Of a stretch of DNA of 64,000 nt, positions 23,329 to 58,163 are shown one piece after another (the first letter of the stretch is position 1; every line of letters starts with the position of its first letter). The DNA lies in NCBI RefSeq assembly GCF_009914755.1, contig NC_060927.1; one strand, given 5' to 3'. The notes beneath the pieces are model-generated. The model ran no database searches. It saw nothing but the letters and a program-made list of their open reading frames with translations, and had not been told where the DNA came from. A program made the translations under genes and the position numbers. The DNA is from the human T2T-CHM13v2.0 reference genome, Homo sapiens.

Positions 23329-26300
23329 AAAGATGGGAAATAAAAATCACTTCCCATACTTAAAACGAAACTTTGCCTAAGAAAGAACAGATATGTAGCA
23401 ATGTACATATTCTAATCTGGCACACCCAAACATACTTTAAAAAAAAAAAAAAAAAATCTTTGTAAGATGAGTGTAGTCATTTCATTTAATCCCAGGACTG
23501 AGGCAATTTCTCAAGCTCTCAAGGCTCCACAGAATTTTGAGATTATGAAGAACAAAGAACAAATCTGGTAGCATTTGCTCAGTCATTTATTTGGTTTATT
23601 TAAAACATGCCACGGGGCCAACATTTCTAAATCTGTGAAATAGAATTAAATGAAGCCCAGAGATGAGAACTGAGAATCCTCATAGAGGACTGGATCCAAA
23701 CAACAAGAAAAGGATGCATTTTTTTACACCGTGAACCACATCACCTCATATGTTTTCACAGAGACTCCCCTGTCCCTTATCCACCAGCCCCCGCTCCAAT
23801 TTTTCAAGCCAGATCTGCTCAAGCAATACTCAGCCCTGAGACCCCAGTTGCCCAAAAGGGCAACAGCTCTCCATCCAGAATCACTCCCACCACAACAGAC
23901 TTATTAAGGTTTGGAATGTGTGTTCAGGAAGCCCTTATTTTAGGAAACAATTAAGTAGAATTAGGCTAATAATGCAAGGCAGGCAAAGCTTTTGCCCTTT
24001 GCTGAAAAATAACTCCTACGTGGAACAGTTATACTAATAAAAATCATGTATTTCTTAAATGCCTCAAAATGATCTTTGCACCAAGCTCAGCAATTAACAC
24101 TGCCCCACTGAGGAGCATTTATTCTCCAGGCTTGGGAGGATTAATCTCCCTGTTCGCCCAACCAATGTCTTCTGTTGGTGAAAATACAGTGTGAGGCTTT
24201 GGGGTCTGGGAATAGAAATTTCTGCAAGTGGGAATTTTGCAGGAGGCTTAATTCCCTTCTCATCTCAGAGGGTGGCAAGGTGGGAAGGAAGGGCTGGGAG
24301 CCCCCCACTAGGCCCAAATAGAGGCCACATCAAAACTCTTCTCGGGCCTACCTGTTCTTGACCTCCAGGGAGGACGGGAAGGCCTTTCTTCAAGTGGCCT
24401 GGGCCTTGTCTACTGGGGGATTGTTCCCAACCCCCCCAAACCCACTCTCCCCTCAAAGTAGCCATTCATGGGCCTTCCTCTGGGCCAGAAGCAATAGATA
24501 TCCCAGCTCCAAGTCTGGGCAGGAAGTGACCGCTGGGCAAAAGCGGGACACAGACCCTCCCGTCTGATGCTTTGTCTCCTTGACAACACCCCAGCTGGTG
24601 GCCCGAGGCACAGGCTTAATTTCTTTTCTTTCTCTGCCCACCCTCCCCGCCCCATACTTCTTTCCCTCTTTCTCTACACGCACACGTACGACATCCAACA
24701 TAAAGTTGCCGAAATAGCAATCTTGTCTCTGAATATATAAATTGCAAAAATTGATATGAATAAATCTGCAAGTAGCACACTGATTGTGGCACATTTTATC
24801 AAAAAACGGCGCTCGGTTGCTCGGTGGCTGGGGAGGGGGTTGGTGTCATTACACATACAGAAAAACATCTGCAAACTCCCAGTTTCTTTACTTAGAACTG
24901 AATGGAGGCATGACCTCCTGTTCCTTGCCATGAACCCTGAGTTCACACTCATATTTTACATGTTACAGGAAGCCACAGCTCGCCCCAGGGGTGCTGCAAA
25001 CAGACACGCAGAAGCCAGATGTAGCCCCCACCCCCCCAACTCCTTAATGCACCTGAAGAAGCCGGCAACTCGACATTCAAAAGCTGACATGCTCGTAGCT
25101 TAAGGTCACTTCAGATTTTGTAAAGAGGAGGACAAAACCAGGAATGCTTCTAGGGCTGGGCTGTCAGCGGGGAGGCAGAGGGATTACAAGAAACCTGTGA
25201 CTCTGCCTCTTTCTGCCTTTGCTGGTAGTTTTTTTGTGTGTGAACAAGTGCCATACAACAGATTGAGCCTCGTATAAAGGCCTGAGACTGTGCAAGGGTT
25301 CCCCGCTGGGCCTCAGCTGTGCTTGCAATTAGCAATAGGCACGGAGTGATTATTGTTGGGGTAGCGGATGGCAATGCGAAGTGACAAGTTTTATGGGGGA
25401 AGTTGGGAGTGGGGAATGCTCTGCAAGTTTCTCTTTCTTTCTTTTTTCTTTCCTTTTTTCTTGTTCTGCAAAATACCCTTCCTTGGGAGGCTGCAACCTC
25501 CTGTTTCAGTGAAAGCTATTTTTCTTTTTCCCTCGTCATTCAAAAGAGTCTTAACAAAATTGTTTGAAAGAATATTTTTCTCAGTGCTTCAGAATGCGGG
25601 TTTTCTAGGTCAGAGCTTCCTTGCTGCCCTATTTAATGTCAGAAATACCCATTTGCCTCAAATTAGCAGAGAGCTTGGAGTTGAGGGCAGGAGATTAAGC
25701 ACACAAAATTACTCAGCAGGTGACGGTGGGGTGGATTTGGGGGTTGAGAAGTCTTTAAAACTGACTACAAGACATTATATACTTCTGACAAAAGAACATA
25801 GTAATCCTACCTGCTTGCTTTAACCACTGTTGTTTGCCTATTATTATGTGCTTTAATGCTCATGAGAGCAAAACTATTGCTGATACTACTCAATTACCAT
25901 AGTAACTCACACCAGTGACCTCTTATCACAGGGCTCCCAGCCCAGCTAAACCAATCCAGACAGTTTGTGTCTTTTTATTTATTTAAACGGTGACATATAC
26001 TTGGACTGGAAAGCTCCAAATAGAGTCGACTCCTCTCTTTGTCTAGAATAAGAACTTGTTTTGAAATTTTGAGTAAGGGCCTTTTCACCTTTTGAATCTG
26101 AGGTGGTTCTGAAGTTTATGGATTTGAGGCTGTGAAACGCCTTCAAAAACATGAAGACACCGAACAATGCCCAATAAAAAGAAAAGAACATGTGTACATC
26201 AGAGACCAGCAGCCTCCCAGCTGCAGGAAAAGTTATGTTTCCCACTCAGGTCTCCAGCTATGGTCTCTCAAAGATTGGTAGGAGGAAAACTGGAGGTTCT

Positions 26301-45100: not shown

Positions 45101-47656
45101 GCACTACATCAGTTAGGTTGCCTAGCACCAATATTCTGTAAAGTAGGAGATCAGGTTATTTAGAAAGTAAGAAAGTAAATGGCAAAGAAACTTGTTATCT
45201 CTAAATAAGCTCCTGAAAAATTTTTTTTTTTCCACGGGGCCGGGAGTGATGTGCAGTGAGTGATTGTAATAGTTAAGCCTTTACCATCAGATATACTCAG
45301 GAGGGTATAACTAAGACTCCGTTGGGAAAACCAAATTGGGACAACATCAGACTAAATTGTGGGGGTTTCCACAATGTTACTGATGCTATTTTATGCTGGT
45401 CAGTGGAATTCAACAAGGGACTGGAGTTACTTGTGAATTTTTGAATGTCCCTAACTATAACTTGCTTTCGGAAAAAAATATTCTCAGTAATATTTCTTTT
45501 TACTATTAATTTACTATTAATTAATTAATTAATTAATTAAAGGCTGGAGGGCTTGAATTTTGCCTGTGGTCTTCAACAGTCAGGCAAGTCCAGTTTTACC
45601 ACCTGTACTAGCCAAGGCTGCACTTTTCCTTTTTAAATGAAGATTTGGTTGCACTTTCCTTTAAGAAGAGCCACAAAAGAGATAATGTGCCTTGCTGCGT
45701 TCAGCAAGGCTACCTTGCTTGTACTTCTAATTTCAAAAAAAGAGAGGCAAGGGTGGATTATTTGTCAATTAAGTAACAAGCTAAACTGCAGATTAAACAT
45801 CAAATTCAGTACTAGATTTAAGTTTTAGAGAACACAAGGTTATTGGTTATTCACACACACTCACACAATAACACACACACACGTACACACGGGCCACATA
45901 AAACTGAGAATCGGAAGATACTGATCAAAGGAAAAAGAAAGGCAACCTAGGCATTGAAAAGGACAACCCACAGGCTTCTTGAATATTTGTGGTTTGGAAT
46001 TTAATTCAATGGAGATGGGCAGAGTGTCCACACTCCTAACTGCAGACCCGAGGGTCCTGCCTGTCTCTGTTTTCAATGCCTATTGGATGGTGATTGTGCC
46101 CCGGACATTCTAGGCTCAGTACTTTCATATAAGGCATGCATGCAGAGAAGGGGGAGGACCCGCTGGTGAGCTTTATGCATGTATGAGGCATTCTCAGTGG
46201 ATGTGGGTCATGCTAGAAGATGTACACAGGAAGATTATTTGATTCTAATTCATGCCACTTGATATAATGTGATAAAACATTTGACATGAGAGATAAGTTC
46301 CATTTTTATCTGAGAGAGGATGGGTGGGAATTAAAAAGTAAGAAGGGTTTTGTCGAGGAAAGGTGATGCAGGGGAAAGAGGGGTATCAAGCACAGAAAGG
46401 GGACGATTGGAAAAGAAAAGAAAAAAAAAGAAAGGAGCCTTTCTACACACGAGGAAAGCAAATGAGCTGGAAGTCAAAGCATATAAAAGTCAGAAGCCGC
46501 AGAATCAGAAAGCGGTGCCAACAATGAGCTCACTTAGCTGTGGAACAAAAACACACACACATACACACACACACAAACTCAATGTAAATTGCTGAACACA
46601 ATCACAGAAAAAAAAAAATAGAAACATGGATTCCATAGTAGACCAAAACATTAATGTTCGCATTGGCACTAAAAATATGGAAACCTGGACAGGAGGAGCT
46701 CACGTTTCACAAGACAGAAGTAGGCTGCACACTCAGAGCCACAGGGAGACAAGAACATCAGCTTCCATGCACTCTGGCCGGGTCTACACTGGCAAATTCG
46801 GTGGAAACCCGAGATGAAATATCTGGCTAAATTAGGTAGCCTCATCTGCTTTGGCCTAAAAGAGATAGGCAATTTGAGACTGAAGCAGGTTCCTTTTTTT
46901 TTTTTTTTTTTTCTTTTTGCCTCAGTGGCTTGCTTTGCTGTGCAGATGCAGTCTCAGTGGAAATAAGATTGCTCAAAAATGATTAACCCTTGGTAATCTG
47001 CATTTTCTGAAGTTTGATCTGGGTCCGCAGCCCAATGTACTCATTCTTTGTACACCTGTTTCTCATAAATTATCAGCTGGCTGGGTGGGCAGGGGGCGCC
47101 ATGGTTTAAAGCTGCAACTGACTGAGCAACTCTAATGTAAGTGTTTGCCAAAACCCAGGGTAAGGATTTCCAGTCTTCCAGGAATGAAATTATCTTTGAA
47201 GTGATAACGATGCGACATTTACTGCACATCTGCACACCACAGCTGGTGTCAGGGAGGCGCCACCCCCAGGAGAGGGAGTTGGTCTCAGCCTCCCTGATGA
47301 GAATATCTCCCTAAAGTGAGGCCAGATTGCAAGGAGGAAAACCATGACCAAGAAAGGTCTTTGCCAGTTAGAGAGAGCTGCCTTGCAAGCTTCGTGCAGG
47401 AATGAGCCTGCTTGCCGAGAGGCTGTGTGCCGTCCTACGTATCACACAGATTGGGACTGAGACACTGCCACACCAGAGTGGGTTCAGAACAGACACAAGA
47501 CAGATAAGAGCCTAAGGCAGAGGGAGAGGAAAAGATTTAGTCTGAATCAGAACCAATCCATTTTCTCAAAATGTGACTTATCCTCCTGTCTCTTATTTTG
47601 TCACATTTTGGAGGGTCTCCTCCTTGGTTTTCAAGGAGGAGAAGGCATTTACTTAC

Positions 47657-47764
47657 ATCAAATAACCTTTCTATGTACATCTCCTCATTGACCTTATCAC
47701 GCAGGACATCCTGAGAATGGCGGACGAAAGTCACGTAGGCGTCGGCCACGTCCATCCCGGGTTT
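47657..47764 (-). CDS. CADPS: CADPS internal coding exon, 108 nt ([36 protein letters not shown]); carries the A-to-I recoded Glu codon
   Basis: Acceptor cctgtttctttacag|AAA, donor GAT|gtaagt. Lies inside track ORF 47537..47827; recognisable CAPS1 C-terminal region. Confidence 0.97.
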
Positions 47765-48266
47765 CTGTAAAGAAACAGGAAAACATGAAAACGAATTTTC
47801 AGACAGCCACTCTTCCTTGTTTACCATTCACTTGTACCCTCTACTTGCCCTCACACACCCTGAGATGCTTCTGCTGGATCAGCTTTGTAGGCATGGGATT
47901 GCTGTCCACAGCCTGGGCTGGTAGGAATTGATATTAGAACTGCTTCCTCTTTCCAGAAATCAAGCCTGGCTAAGAAGGGCATTGAGATTGTAGGATTTTA
48001 TAAATAGTTTTTCTATGATAAATTTTTTCCTGGCAAATTTATCTAATGGATAAATCTTTACTGCATAACCCATAGATGTTCTCTGACTTTGCCTTGGATT
48101 GAAACCTGCATTAAAGAATATCCAAACATACTGTTTTCCACTGTCCTTAATATATTATCAGACGGGTGATGGAACTTCCCATTCCTTTTTCCTCTTTTAA
48201 AATATTGAGAAAGTACTAAGTAAAAAAAATTGTGTTTCAATCTATACCTCTTCCTACCCAAGTCTC

Positions 48267-56200: not shown

Positions 56201-58163
56201 ATGGCAGCTAAGACGATGAATTCATAAGCAAATGTGGGTGAGTTCTGAGTACTGTGAAAAGTCAATGAACAGCTGGGTTTGAGAAATAAAGCCTATGGGA
56301 GTATGTTTAATATTCTGTGTGTTTCATTTTGACTCAGGTCACACATGTTTCTCTAGGCACAATTAAGACTAAGGAGCTACATTTGGGGTCAGAGAGGGTT
56401 TCCTGTTTTTACTGGGAACTACAAAGACTGCAATGCACAAAAAGCAGTTAGGATGTCTTTTCACATCTCAGCCAGGCTTCCTCCTGCAATTTGGCTGAGA
56501 TCAATATTAGGAATCAAGCTTCACCCAAATGTCTCCCAGAAAAGTACCCAGGGGAGTGATTTCCTCTGTTGCTCTTTTCTCAGTGCTAGTTTCCAAAATG
56601 TCAGCTCTCAAGAGAAAACAGCCAATGAACCAATAGGGTGGGGTGGAAAGAGCCCAGAATATAGAGTCAAAAGTTCTTTCAGTGCCAGAACTCGTTGACC
56701 CTGGGGAAATCATGCCAAGTTCCTTAGCCTTGGTTTCCAGATTTCTAGACCAAGGTGACAATACTGTGTACTTTGCAGGGCTGAAAGCTTGGTGAAATGA
56801 GAAAACGCATGAGAAAGTGCTTTGTAAACTTTAAAGCAAGGAACACACATCAATTAGGTAATTATCGAGAGGGCAATGCATTCTATCTTCTTGAATCATT
56901 GCCAGCCCCCAAGACGATTCCTGGAGTCTCCTGTTACAGATTCTCTTAGAACCTTACACTTGTTCTTGCAGCATTGATTGCAATTCAGCCGAAATTTTTT
57001 TTTGTGCAATGTCTACCTCCCATATAATGTCATGAGAGCAAAGGCTATCTTGGTCTTGCTCATGGCTGTCTCCTCATTGATTCACCTGGTACCAGCTTAG
57101 AAAGGAAACTCAGGGAAAATTTATAGAGGGAAGCAATGAGAGAAAGCTAATGACCAGTTCTGGCCTCAGGATGATTGAGAAGTAAGCAGAGGCAAGATTG
57201 CATCAAGGAGCCACGTCACTGATCAGTCTGAAAACCAACATAGTTGTATAGAAAGGTGACTGCCTGCAGAGGCTGGTGGGTAAAGGAGAATACTCTTAGT
57301 CCTTAAAGGGATTTGAGGCAGGCTCTCCAGATTTTGCACAATTATCATTTCTACTAAAAGATTCTAAACCCCAAATCTTTCCTCGCCATTGCTATGCTAG
57401 AACTTAGTTCAGGAAAGAAGGTGGCTTGCCTTTTTTTTTCATGTCTCCCCCATGTATACTATTATCTAACATTTCTGTGATATTTTTCATTTGCAAAACA
57501 CTTCCACAAACAGTTTCTTCTTTAAGCCACCCTGCAAAAAGGGGGTGATTCAATCAGATCCGTTTACAATCGAGAACGTAAAACCCATAGAATTTAAGGA
57601 ATTTATTTGCTCATGATCACAGACAGGAGGCAGAGAAGCCAAGACTCCTATGCGGTCATCTGAGCCCAACTTTCTCCCTTGGAACTCTTGATCTCCTCAA
57701 TATTGGTAGAAAAGTATGAGGAATTCAAGCATCGGTGGTCAGAGCAGGTGCTAGCAGAACAATTCTTCTCAGCTAGAAATTGCCTCCTGTACTCTGTGAT
57801 GTTGATGCTTAGCAGTTGGTAGGGGTTTTGTTACAGCTGAAATGAGCAACCTTTAAACACACCATTTACCATTTACTACTAACATGCAGTTACAATCCGG
57901 AGAATGACACCAAATTCTATTCCTTTACAGGCAGTTTGGGAAGATGAGGCAAGTTTCTGTCACAAATGAAAATCATCCACTCTCCCTCATGCACCAGCCC
58001 TCGGTTTGTTAGGATTGTTCTTTTATTTAATAAATGATGACTTGCACTTAGTCTTATTGATCCTCCTCCCATCCCATAATAACAGGAAAAAATAACCCAG
58101 GGTAAATTGTGGTCTATTATTATTTAGAGACATGTGTGTATCATTTTTGGTTCGGGATATTGA

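What the first reader, a model, noticed from the sequence alone, without database searches (positions are those of the whole stretch)
47567..47692. Twin perfect 11-bp hairpins right after the donor; one arm can instead pair with the recoding site
Seen: TCTCCTCCTTG-gtttt-CAAGGAGGAGA (47616-47642) and CAAAATGTGAC-22 nt-GTCACATTTTG (47567-47610). In pre-mRNA the first arm (AUGCCUUCUCCUCCUUGA, from intron +9) can alternatively pair with exonic UCAAUGAGGAGAUG, placing the 5' splice site in the loop. These pairings are mutually exclusive. Inference: a co-transcriptional switch coupling editing to splicing, or two hairpins that bring the distal complement next to the exon.
Basis: partly seen in the sequence, partly recalled or inferred. 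Interest (0 to 1): 0.7.

Follow-up and report, generated by a model that had tools for sequence, protein, structure and literature searches.

The report
Hairpins inside the CADPS editing duplex
The two perfect hairpins just after the splice donor of the edited CADPS exon are real, but rather than a switch they look like parts of a long fold-back between this exon and intron sequence 1.4 kb downstream that lets the ADAR enzymes recode the protein.

Summary
Both perfect 11-bp hairpins and the alternative exon-arm pairing are present at the stated coordinates, and the recoded adenosine (E1250G, window 47685, minus strand) lies in the exonic partner. The switch reading is not supported. The exon-arm helix is populated only while 11-16 nt are being transcribed. 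It then falls to P=0.000 behind a 6.4 kcal/mol barrier, and it never competes with the distal complement.

The known distal complement (ECS, 46215-46243) is part of a 134-nt inverted copy (46192-46325) of 165 nt of exon plus proximal intron (47552-47716). Hairpin 1 is exactly the 27-nt piece missing from the distal copy. It folds on itself as a side branch between the editing helix and a second 44-bp helix.

Hairpin 2 is the local fold of the proximal strand of that second helix. In full-length folds it opens (P=0.000) and pairs with 46266-46325.

Published human neuron data list two non-repeat intronic A-to-G sites, which map to 46273 and 46294. Both lie in the distal strand of the second helix, and one is an A·C mismatch opposite hairpin 2's arm.

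The layout resembles the GluA2 Q/R duplex with its editing inducer element. Conservation could not be tested.

The parts
47657..47764 (-). CADPS exon (exon 28 of NM_003716) carrying the E/G recoding site
   Evidence: Hub gene table; frame-0 translation ends ...[12 protein letters not shown]
47685..47685 (-). Recoded adenosine, E1250G (GAG to GGG)
   Evidence: Peptides [18 protein letters not shown]; hg38 chr3:62438132 c.A3749G p.E1250G, maximum level 0.767; hg19 62423807 in the mammalian conserved set; predicted pair A47685-U46215 with P 0.913
47651..47659 (-). 5' splice site (exon -3 to intron +6); the exon side is paired with the ECS, +1 to +3 are unpaired, +4 to +6 are weakly paired (P 0.48)
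47616..47642 (-). Hairpin 1: perfect 11-bp stem with a 5-nt loop, -19.1 kcal/mol. It is exactly the 27-nt piece absent from the distal inverted copy and forms a side branch at the junction (P=1.0 in every context folded)
   Evidence: (I11); unique in the human genome at up to 3 mismatches
47567..47610 (-). Hairpin 2: perfect 11-bp stem with a 22-nt loop, -12.6 kcal/mol. It is a local fold of the proximal strand of helix B, with P 0.24-0.98 in short transcripts and 0.000 once the distal partner is present
   Evidence: (I10)
47680..47691 (-). Exon segment that can transiently pair with hairpin 1's 5' arm (47631-47642)
   Evidence: I12
47644..47716 (-). Helix A, proximal strand (exon 3' part, donor, intron to +13). 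It forms 52 bp in 7 helices with 46192-46256, including 15 bp, an A47670·C46230 mismatch, then 13 bp
   Evidence: The five published exonic editing sites map to 47663, 47676, 47685, 47688 and 47712, all inside this span; 47688 falls in its 3x4 internal loop
46192..46256 (-). Helix A, distal strand. The editing-site complementary sequence (core 46215-46243) lies at intron +1414 to +1442
   Evidence: published as about 1.5 kb downstream in mouse and validated by disrupting and compensatory mutations
47552..47607 (-). Helix B, proximal strand (contains hairpin 2). It forms 44 bp in 9 short helices with 46266-46325
46266..46325 (-). Helix B, distal strand, directly 5' of the ECS
   Evidence: Best of 2314 windows of the downstream intron for the hairpin-2 segment (-44.2 kcal/mol; mean -20.4, sd 4.6); inverted blastn HSP of 60 nt, 71.7%, E 4.4e-5 in an 801 x 1001-nt comparison
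46273..46273 (-). Published intronic A-to-G site (hg38 chr3:62436720, 'Known', non-repeat). In helix B it is an A·C mismatch opposite C47600, the last base of hairpin 2's 5' arm
46294..46294 (-). Published intronic A-to-G site (hg38 chr3:62436741, 'Novel', non-repeat). In helix B it pairs with U47580, which lies in hairpin 2's loop
47608..47615 (-). Unpaired junction linker on the proximal strand (8 nt). The distal linker is 46257-46265 (9 nt)

Best explanation
The twin hairpins belong to the proximal arm of a long inverted repeat that forms the ADAR substrate for the CADPS E/G site.

About 165 nt of exon plus proximal intron (47716-47552) are complementary to 134 nt lying 1.33-1.47 kb into the intron (46192-46325). 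Together they form two long-range helices. Helix A is the known exon-ECS editing helix, which also covers the donor. Helix B is a purely intronic helix of 44 bp.

Hairpin 1 is exactly the 27 nt that the distal copy lacks. Because it is self-complementary it folds on itself and sticks out as a branch at the junction between helices A and B. This keeps its pyrimidine arm off the editing site and acts as a structured spacer between the two helices.

Hairpin 2 is what the proximal strand of helix B does while it waits for its partner. It forms locally during transcription and has to open when 46266-46325 is made. Its 22-nt loop is free to start that pairing.

Helix B probably works like an editing inducer element: an extra double-stranded platform next to the site-selective helix, and one that is itself edited.

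Shown here: the sequence features, the predicted energies and probabilities, the exact indel, and the position of published editing sites. Inferred: that the junction forms in cells as drawn, that hairpin 2 is only transient, and that helix B or hairpin 1 raises or shapes E/G editing.
For: 1. In the fold of 47764-46140 (1625 nt), ECS pairs have P 0.91-1.0, hairpin 1 has P 1.000, and hairpin 2 and the exon-arm helix have P 0.000. The stretch 47607-47552 pairs with 46266-46325.

2. The two-strand fold gives the same picture, with helix B pairs at P 0.96-1.0. The dimer folds at -151.7 kcal/mol against -67.1 and -28.1 for the strands alone.

3. The hairpin-2 segment alone (47552-47612, no exon and no hairpin 1) finds its best partner among 2314 windows of the 35-kb downstream intron directly beside the ECS. 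That partner scores -44.2; the mean is -20.4 (sd 4.6), the next unrelated window -36.2, and the best of the upstream control windows -36.7.

4. In the alignment of the proximal sense strand with the distal reverse complement, column identity is 76% and there is one 27-column gap, equal to hairpin 1. blastn finds two inverted HSPs, each with E 4.4e-5.

5. In-cell evidence comes from one stored sheet of a human neuron dataset. The only two sites with coordinates starting chr3_6243 or chr3_6244 (20 kb) are 62436720 and 62436741. Both are non-repeat intronic CADPS A-to-G sites, with FANS medians of 0.42 and 0.25. With the offset fixed by E1250G they map to A46273 and A46294, both in the distal strand of helix B. 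All 7 of 7 published sites (5 exonic, 2 intronic) fall on an A of the gene strand. In a local 401-nt fold that lacks the proximal partner these two As are poorly paired (P 0.56 and 0.21).

6. The five published exonic sites all lie within the helix A span, which reaches 47712.

7. The GluA2 Q/R substrate is described as two duplexes separated by a 35-nt internal loop, the intronic 45-bp stem acting as an editing inducer element. Listed elements have 25-54 bp and lie 32-230 nt from the site. Helix B has 44 bp and starts 78 nt from A47685.
Against: All structures are equilibrium predictions on naked RNA. U1 snRNP, other proteins and transcription kinetics are ignored.

No vertebrate genome other than human is available in these tools, so neither the hairpins nor helix B could be tested for conservation or covariation. 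Two flawless 11-bp stems could be young and neutral.

The reciprocal scan is not unique. The distal helix-B segment scores -46.3 with 24626-24715 and -44.5 with the hairpin-2 region, which therefore ranks second of 3401 windows.

In the whole-window blastn only the ECS-core HSP passed E<=1. The helix-B HSP appeared only in the restricted comparison.

The longest uninterrupted run in helix B is 7 bp, which is poor for ADAR by itself.

Forcing either arm of hairpin 1 to stay unpaired left every ECS pairing probability unchanged, so nothing computed here shows that hairpin 1 is needed.

The editing table was cut when stored and only one sheet showed these sites. No edited A was seen on the proximal strand, and the units of the rate columns are ambiguous.

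The figures of Miyake 2016 and Shumate 2021 could not be read, so the extended pairing may already be drawn there.
Confidence: 0.6

Rival explanations
1. Hairpin 1 and the exon-arm helix are two functional states. The choice between them during transcription sets whether the editing site is free for the distal complement and how the donor is presented, which couples editing to splicing.
For: The two pairings share a strand and exclude each other (I11 and I12). The recoded A47685 lies in the exon partner. The exon-arm helix dominates (P 0.98) for transcripts ending at 47631-47626. The arm's complement to the editing site lies only 38 nt away, although the window-wide expectation for such a 12-mer is 0.72.
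Against: After 11-16 more nucleotides the equilibrium is entirely hairpin 1 (P 1.000 against 0.000). The energies are -19.1 against -12.5 kcal/mol, and the refolding barrier is 6.4 kcal/mol, too low for a kinetic trap. With hairpin 1's 3' arm blocked, the freed arm still does not displace the ECS (alternative helix P 0.000, ECS unchanged). Minor editing sites at 47663, 47676 and 47712 lie outside the 12-bp helix. Hairpin 1 starts at +15, beyond the donor.
Confidence: 0.08
2. Neutral palindromes. Both hairpins are by-products of mutation, for example short template-switch events in a purine/pyrimidine-rich stretch, and have no role. Helix B is a decaying relic of the inverted duplication that created the ECS and is irrelevant to editing of the exon.
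For: The window has 5 such hairpins against about 0.7-0.9 in shuffles, so real DNA makes them more often than shuffles suggest. GGAGG and CCUCC motifs recur locally (I5, I7, I18). Hairpin 1 has no distal counterpart and does not affect the predicted ECS pairing. The CADPS2 paralogue has neither the hairpins nor an ECS-like complement: the best of 650 windows is -31.3, against -51.7 for CADPS.
Against: Two perfect stems side by side occurred in 0 of 200 and 1 of 200 shuffles. Helix B keeps 44 bp and is edited at two adenosines in human neurons. E/G editing is reported from zebrafish to human. If the repeat is that old, intronic complementarity of 72% would need selection; this is an inference.
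Confidence: 0.2
3. A protein-operated toggle. An RNA-binding protein that holds the purine arm (GGAGGAGA) or the pyrimidine arm of hairpin 1, or a helicase, opens the hairpin in some tissues. The freed arm then interferes with the top of the editing helix (47680-47691) and tunes E/G editing.
For: E/G editing varies widely between human tissues: adrenal 658 of 858 reads, hypothalamus 4839 of 8813, frontal cortex 2830 of 15051, heart atrial appendage 56 of 6631. The arm covers the recoded A and the 5-bp helix above it. That such motifs resemble SR-protein and PTB sites is recalled, not tested.
Against: The constrained fold shows that the ECS wins regardless. The ECS has 23 nt of free exon (47657-47679) from which to start displacing the arm. 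No binding data were examined. Tissue differences have simpler causes, such as ADAR levels (recalled).
Confidence: 0.08

Closest known systems
CADPS/CAPS1 E/G editing duplex (Miyake et al. 2016; Ulbricht et al. 2017 preprint)
   Same: Same site and same distal complement. The exon pairs with intron sequence about 1.4-1.5 kb downstream, and this was shown necessary in a mouse minigene by disrupting and compensatory mutations (passages of the preprint).
   Different: The passages read call it 'a small, yet stable hairpin'. They do not mention the two proximal hairpins, the 27-nt indel or a second intronic helix. The figures and Miyake 2016 itself could not be read, so prior depiction cannot be excluded.
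GluA2 (GRIA2) Q/R substrate with its editing inducer element (Daniel et al. 2017, PMC5654063, passages)
   Same: A short site-selective exon-ECS helix sits next to a longer intronic stem (45 bp there, 44 bp here), separated by an internal loop (35 nt there; 36 nt proximal and 9 nt distal here). The intronic stem is itself edited.
   Different: In CADPS both helices come from one long-range inverted repeat spanning 1.3 kb, not from a compact local stem-loop. Most of the spacer is a perfect 11-bp hairpin, which makes a three-way junction. An inducer function is not tested. CADPS does not occur in the main text of that paper.
Gabra3 I/M intronic editing inducer element (passages)
   Same: An intronic double-stranded element downstream of the edited exon that is itself prone to editing.
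   Different: That element is an autonomous 149-nt hairpin that works when moved. Helix B needs the distal partner and is collinear with the ECS.
Exon-intron editing duplexes that cover the 5' splice site (GluA2 R/G, 5-HT2C; recalled, for the downstream-intron ECS of 5-HT2C and GluA2 Q/R)
   Same: The donor lies inside the ADAR duplex, so editing has to happen before the intron is removed.
   Different: Here the donor core (+1 to +3) is predicted unpaired, and the hairpins begin at +15, outside the donor.

Membership tests
ADAR site-selective exon-intron (ECS) duplex | The edited adenosine lies in an exon stretch complementary to an intronic sequence | tested here: met
   The exon 3' 59 nt score -51.7 kcal/mol with 46177-46256, top of the scan of the downstream intron. 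The pairing is 15 bp, an A·C mismatch, then 13 bp, with P 0.91-1.0.
ADAR site-selective exon-intron (ECS) duplex | A-to-I editing is documented at that adenosine | tested here: met
   From the literature, not from reads: (E1250G; up to 0.767).
ADAR site-selective exon-intron (ECS) duplex | Editing is lost on ECS disruption and restored by compensatory change | not testable with these tools
   Published for the mouse minigene; not repeated here.
ADAR site-selective exon-intron (ECS) duplex | The flagged hairpins are themselves strands of that duplex | tested here: inconclusive
   The hairpin-2 stretch is (helix B). Hairpin 1 is not: it has no distal counterpart.
Editing inducer element (Daniel et al. 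2017) | A stable stem of roughly 25-54 bp lies within about 32-230 nt of the selective site | tested here: met
   Helix B has 44 bp over 56/60 nt and starts 78 nt 3' of A47685. The ranges come from Table 1 passages.
Editing inducer element (Daniel et al. 2017) | It is separated from the selective helix by an internal loop | tested here: met
   The junction is U47643, hairpin 1 and 8 nt on one side, and 9 nt on the other.
Editing inducer element (Daniel et al. 2017) | The element is itself edited | tested here: met
   Two published intronic sites map to 46273 and 46294. This assumes a constant hg38-to-window offset, which is supported by 7 of 7 sites falling on A.
Editing inducer element (Daniel et al. 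2017) | It is an autonomous local stem-loop that can be moved | tested here: not met
   The strands of helix B lie 1.24-1.34 kb apart and are collinear with the ECS.
Editing inducer element (Daniel et al. 2017) | It is conserved, and its deletion lowers editing at the selective site | not testable with these tools
   No other vertebrate genome is held, and no experiment is possible.
Mutually exclusive RNA-structure switch | Two helices share one strand | tested here: met
   I11 against I12.
Mutually exclusive RNA-structure switch | Both states are populated, or one is kinetically trapped | tested here: not met
   P is 0.000 against 1.000 once the 3' arm is made. The barrier is 6.4 kcal/mol.
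Mutually exclusive RNA-structure switch | Covariation supports both states, and there is an effect on splicing or editing | not testable with these tools
   No orthologues are held, and no experiment is possible.
Curated RNA families (Rfam 15) / small-RNA precursor | A match to a covariance model | tested here: not met
   No match in 47552-47716 or 46192-46325. In 46000-47900 there were only two sub-threshold matches elsewhere, at E 0.19 and 0.26.
Interspersed repeat | Other copies exist in the genome | tested here: not met
   The 27-mer of hairpin 1 has 1 place in the genome at up to 3 mismatches, which is itself. The 211-nt stretch matches only itself and the CADPS2 exon.

The most novel reading that the evidence does not exclude
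Hairpin 1 is a latent competitor ECS kept locked by its own perfect complement. In tissues where a protein or helicase opens it, the pyrimidine arm invades the top of the editing helix at the recoded adenosine and lowers E/G editing.
Probability: 0.07. Interest if true: 0.7.

Novelty: new member of a known kind. Interest (0 to 1): 0.4.

Why it matters
CADPS E/G is one of the few recoding sites kept from fish to man. It changes vesicle release, according to the abstract and passages of the preprint. Its level ranges from about 1% in human heart to 77% in adrenal gland.

Knowing the full substrate tells experimenters which pieces to delete or mutate. That substrate is an editing helix, a hairpin branch, and a second helix that is itself edited. 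Knowing it also prevents a misreading: the local hairpins are not free-standing elements.

If helix B acts as an inducer element, CADPS would be a case where inducer and ECS come from one long-range inverted repeat, with a self-folding insertion as the spacer.

Tried and rejected

2. Miyake 2016 and Shumate 2021 are not held. The cap on papers was reached before a review of ADAR2 could be read. The published drawing of the duplex was therefore not seen.

3. Licht 2019, on splicing-controlled editing, has no mention of Cadps or CAPS1 in its main text. Costa Cruz 2020 has only a reference. The supplements of Kalmykova 2021, on conserved long-range pairs, have no CADPS entry in the 5 files searched.

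4. Rfam gave nothing relevant.

5. Decoy idea: hairpin 1's 3' arm copies the exon site in 10 of 11 positions and might soak up the ECS. It was rejected because the arm scores -10.2 with the ECS against -26.0 for the exon site.

6. The idea that hairpin 1 protects ECS pairing thermodynamically found no support: forcing either arm unpaired left the ECS probabilities unchanged.

7. The CADPS2 paralogue was used as a natural control. It has no twin hairpins and no ECS-like complement within 9.8 kb, so it gives no information on conservation.

8. A by-eye count of wobble-compatible against A·C-type differences between the two arms showed no clear strand bias. It was not computed and is not used.

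9. Cross-species covariation cannot be done here, because only the human assembly is held.
Full report
**Observation**

CADPS runs on the minus strand. The exon 47657-47764 ends ...[12 protein letters not shown] and is followed by a GUAAGU donor.

Hairpin 1 (arms 47642-47632 and 47626-47616, loop 5 nt) and hairpin 2 (arms 47610-47600 and 47577-47567, loop 22 nt) are both perfect 11-bp inverted repeats (I11 and I10). They lie at intron +15 to +41 and +47 to +90. The 5' arm of hairpin 1 is also 92% complementary over 12 nt to exon 47680-47691 (I12).

The recoded adenosine is the first Glu of NEE:
- The peptides are VNEEMYIER and VNGEMYIER.
- The change is c.A3749G p.E1250G at hg38 chr3:62438132.
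- It is named E1250G in a review.
- It is the only CADPS site in the mammalian conserved set.

**Chance**

The window has 5 distinct perfect hairpins of this class, two of them here. Shuffles give 0.67 or 0.89 on average, and two hairpins within 50 nt of each other in 0 of 200 and 1 of 200. The 91-nt stretch folds 5.8 sd better than its shuffles.

Real DNA clearly makes more palindromes than shuffles do, so these numbers overstate significance. The adjacency is still unusual. The arm's complementarity to the editing site is not unusual window-wide (3 matches, one being the exon itself, against 0.72 expected). It is unusual only by position.

**The known partner**

Scanning the last 59 nt of the exon against the downstream intron gives one outstanding partner at 46177-46256 (-51.7 kcal/mol; next unrelated -41.4). 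The pairing is as follows:
- 13 bp
- an A47670·C46230 mismatch
- 15 bp ending at A47685-U46215
- a 3x4 internal loop
- 5 bp

This lies at intron +1414 to +1442. It matches the published mouse ECS 'about 1.5 kb downstream in intron 27', which was validated by disrupting and compensatory mutations (passages of the Ulbricht 2017 preprint).

**What the hairpins are**

I folded the whole 1625 nt from the exon start to beyond the ECS. The long-range pairing does not stop at the exon end:
- It continues over the donor (47648-47644 with 46252-46256).
- It skips hairpin 1, which forms locally with P 1.000.
- It resumes with 47607-47552 paired to 46266-46325, as 44 bp in nine short helices.

Local hairpin 2 has P 0.000 in this ensemble, although it has P 0.24-0.98 in transcripts that end before the distal partner. 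A two-strand fold gives the same result: helix B pairs at P 0.96-1.0, and a dimer energy of -151.7 against -95.2 kcal/mol for the two strands apart.

The extension does not depend on the exon helix nearby. The hairpin-2 segment alone, scanned against 2314 windows of the 35-kb intron, finds its best partner directly 5' of the ECS (-44.2; mean -20.4, sd 4.6; next unrelated -36.2).

At DNA level the distal reverse complement aligns with the proximal sense strand over about 165 nt at 76% column identity. There is a single 27-column gap that equals hairpin 1 (11+5+11). blastn reports two inverted HSPs flanking that gap, each with E 4.4e-5 in the local comparison.

So hairpin 1 is the exact indel between the two arms of an inverted repeat, and hairpin 2 lies inside the repeat.

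**Evidence from cells**

Supplementary Data 2 of Gabay 2022 lists five sites in this exon: E1250G at a maximum of 0.767, and N1249S, Y1253C, L1257L and Q1241R at 2-5%. With the offset fixed by E1250G they fall on 47685, 47688, 47676, 47663 and 47712. All are As of the gene strand, and all lie within the predicted helix A, which reaches 47716.

In a supplement of Cuddleston 2022 (one sheet, file cut when stored), the only entries with coordinates starting chr3_6243 or chr3_6244 are 62436720 and 62436741. Both are minus-strand A-to-G, non-repeat, intronic CADPS sites, with FANS medians of 0.42 and 0.25. They map as follows:
- A46273 is an A·C mismatch opposite C47600, the last base of hairpin 2's 5' arm, flanked by 7-bp and 6-bp helices.
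- A46294 is paired with U47580, which lies in hairpin 2's loop.

In a 401-nt local fold without the proximal partner these As are poorly paired (P 0.56 and 0.21). This is the strongest support that helix B forms in neurons. It rests on a constant hg38-to-window offset, for which 7 of 7 sites landing on A is the check.

**The switch hypothesis**

The exon-arm helix has P 0.98 for transcripts ending at 47631 or 47626, and P 0.000 from 47616 onward. The energies are -12.5 and -19.1 kcal/mol, and the best direct refolding path has a barrier of 6.4 kcal/mol. By the usual rate estimates (inference) that means refolding in milliseconds to tens of milliseconds.

With hairpin 1's 3' arm forced single-stranded, the freed 5' arm still does not take the exon from the ECS. 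No ECS probability changes. A self-operating switch is therefore not supported. One operated by a protein is not excluded, but it has no evidence.

**Likely mechanism**

The layout is a site-selective helix, a spacer, then a second intronic helix of 44 bp that is itself edited. This matches the description of the GluA2 Q/R substrate: two duplexes separated by a 35-nt internal loop, with the 45-bp intronic stem acting as an editing inducer element. Listed elements have 25-54 bp and lie 32-230 nt from the site (passages).

I therefore read the three parts as follows:
- Helix B is an inducer-like platform.
- Hairpin 1 is a self-folded spacer at a three-way junction.
- Hairpin 2 is a transient fold whose free loop can start pairing with the distal strand.

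These functional steps are inferred. CADPS is not mentioned in the main text of that paper.

**Against this reading**

- There are no orthologues to test.
- The reciprocal scan ranks the hairpin-2 region second (-44.5) behind 24626-24715 (-46.3) among 3401 windows.
- The helix-B HSP did not pass E<=1 in the whole-window blastn.
- The helices of helix B are short, at most 7 bp.
- No proximal-strand editing was seen in the stored data.
- Nothing computed shows that hairpin 1 matters.

**Controls**

- The CADPS2 paralogue exon (77% identical) has no such hairpins. It also has no ECS-like partner in 9.8 kb (best -31.3 of 650 windows).
- Hairpin 1's 27-mer is unique in the genome at up to 3 mismatches.
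- Rfam finds nothing relevant.

**Novelty**

The E/G site and its distal ECS are known. The searches, and the passages read, mention none of the following: the twin hairpins, the exact 27-nt indel, the second helix, or its link to the two intronic editing sites. The primary figures (Miyake 2016, Shumate 2021) could not be seen.

I file it as a new member of a known kind, an exon-ECS duplex with an adjacent inducer-like helix. Interest is moderate.

Noticed in passing
window 47670 (- strand) opposite 46230: An A·C mismatch (second base of Glu1255, GAA) sits in the middle of the 29-bp exon-ECS helix, which is normally a favoured ADAR context. It is not among the five exon sites listed by Gabay 2022. 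Its 5' neighbour is G.
   Followed up: partly
window 57069-57080: An exact 12-nt copy of the exon's editing-site segment, in the same sense on the gene strand, lies in the upstream intron 9.4 kb away. The count is within chance expectation for the window.
   Followed up: no
window 47330-47343: A second pyrimidine stretch about 315 nt into the intron is complementary to hairpin 1's 3' arm (14 nt, 86%, I5). By reading, not tested, it could therefore also pair with the similar exon editing-site segment. It is not used in the full-length MFE.
   Followed up: partly
window 47135-47149: An intronic stretch about 510 nt downstream is complementary to the donor region 47644-47658 (15 nt, 80%, including 8 contiguous pairs over the donor core) (I4). 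It is not used in the MFE.
   Followed up: no
window 24626-24715: This stretch is the strongest predicted partner (-46.3 kcal/mol) of the distal helix-B segment in the reciprocal scan. It lies inside a RefSeq enhancer interval (24381-25203). I suspect, without checking, that a purine-rich stretch is pairing with the CU-rich end of the segment.
   Followed up: no
L002 1490-1560 (- strand), human chr7 CADPS2: The paralogous exon keeps the same NEEMYIE coding stretch, but its intron starts differently and has only a 10-nt mini-palindrome. No ECS-like complement exists within 9.8 kb.
   Followed up: yes
window 47685: Published human read counts for E1250G differ greatly by tissue: adrenal 658/858, hypothalamus 4839/8813, frontal cortex 2830/15051, heart atrial appendage 56/6631. 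Mouse heart was reported at about 27%.
   Followed up: no
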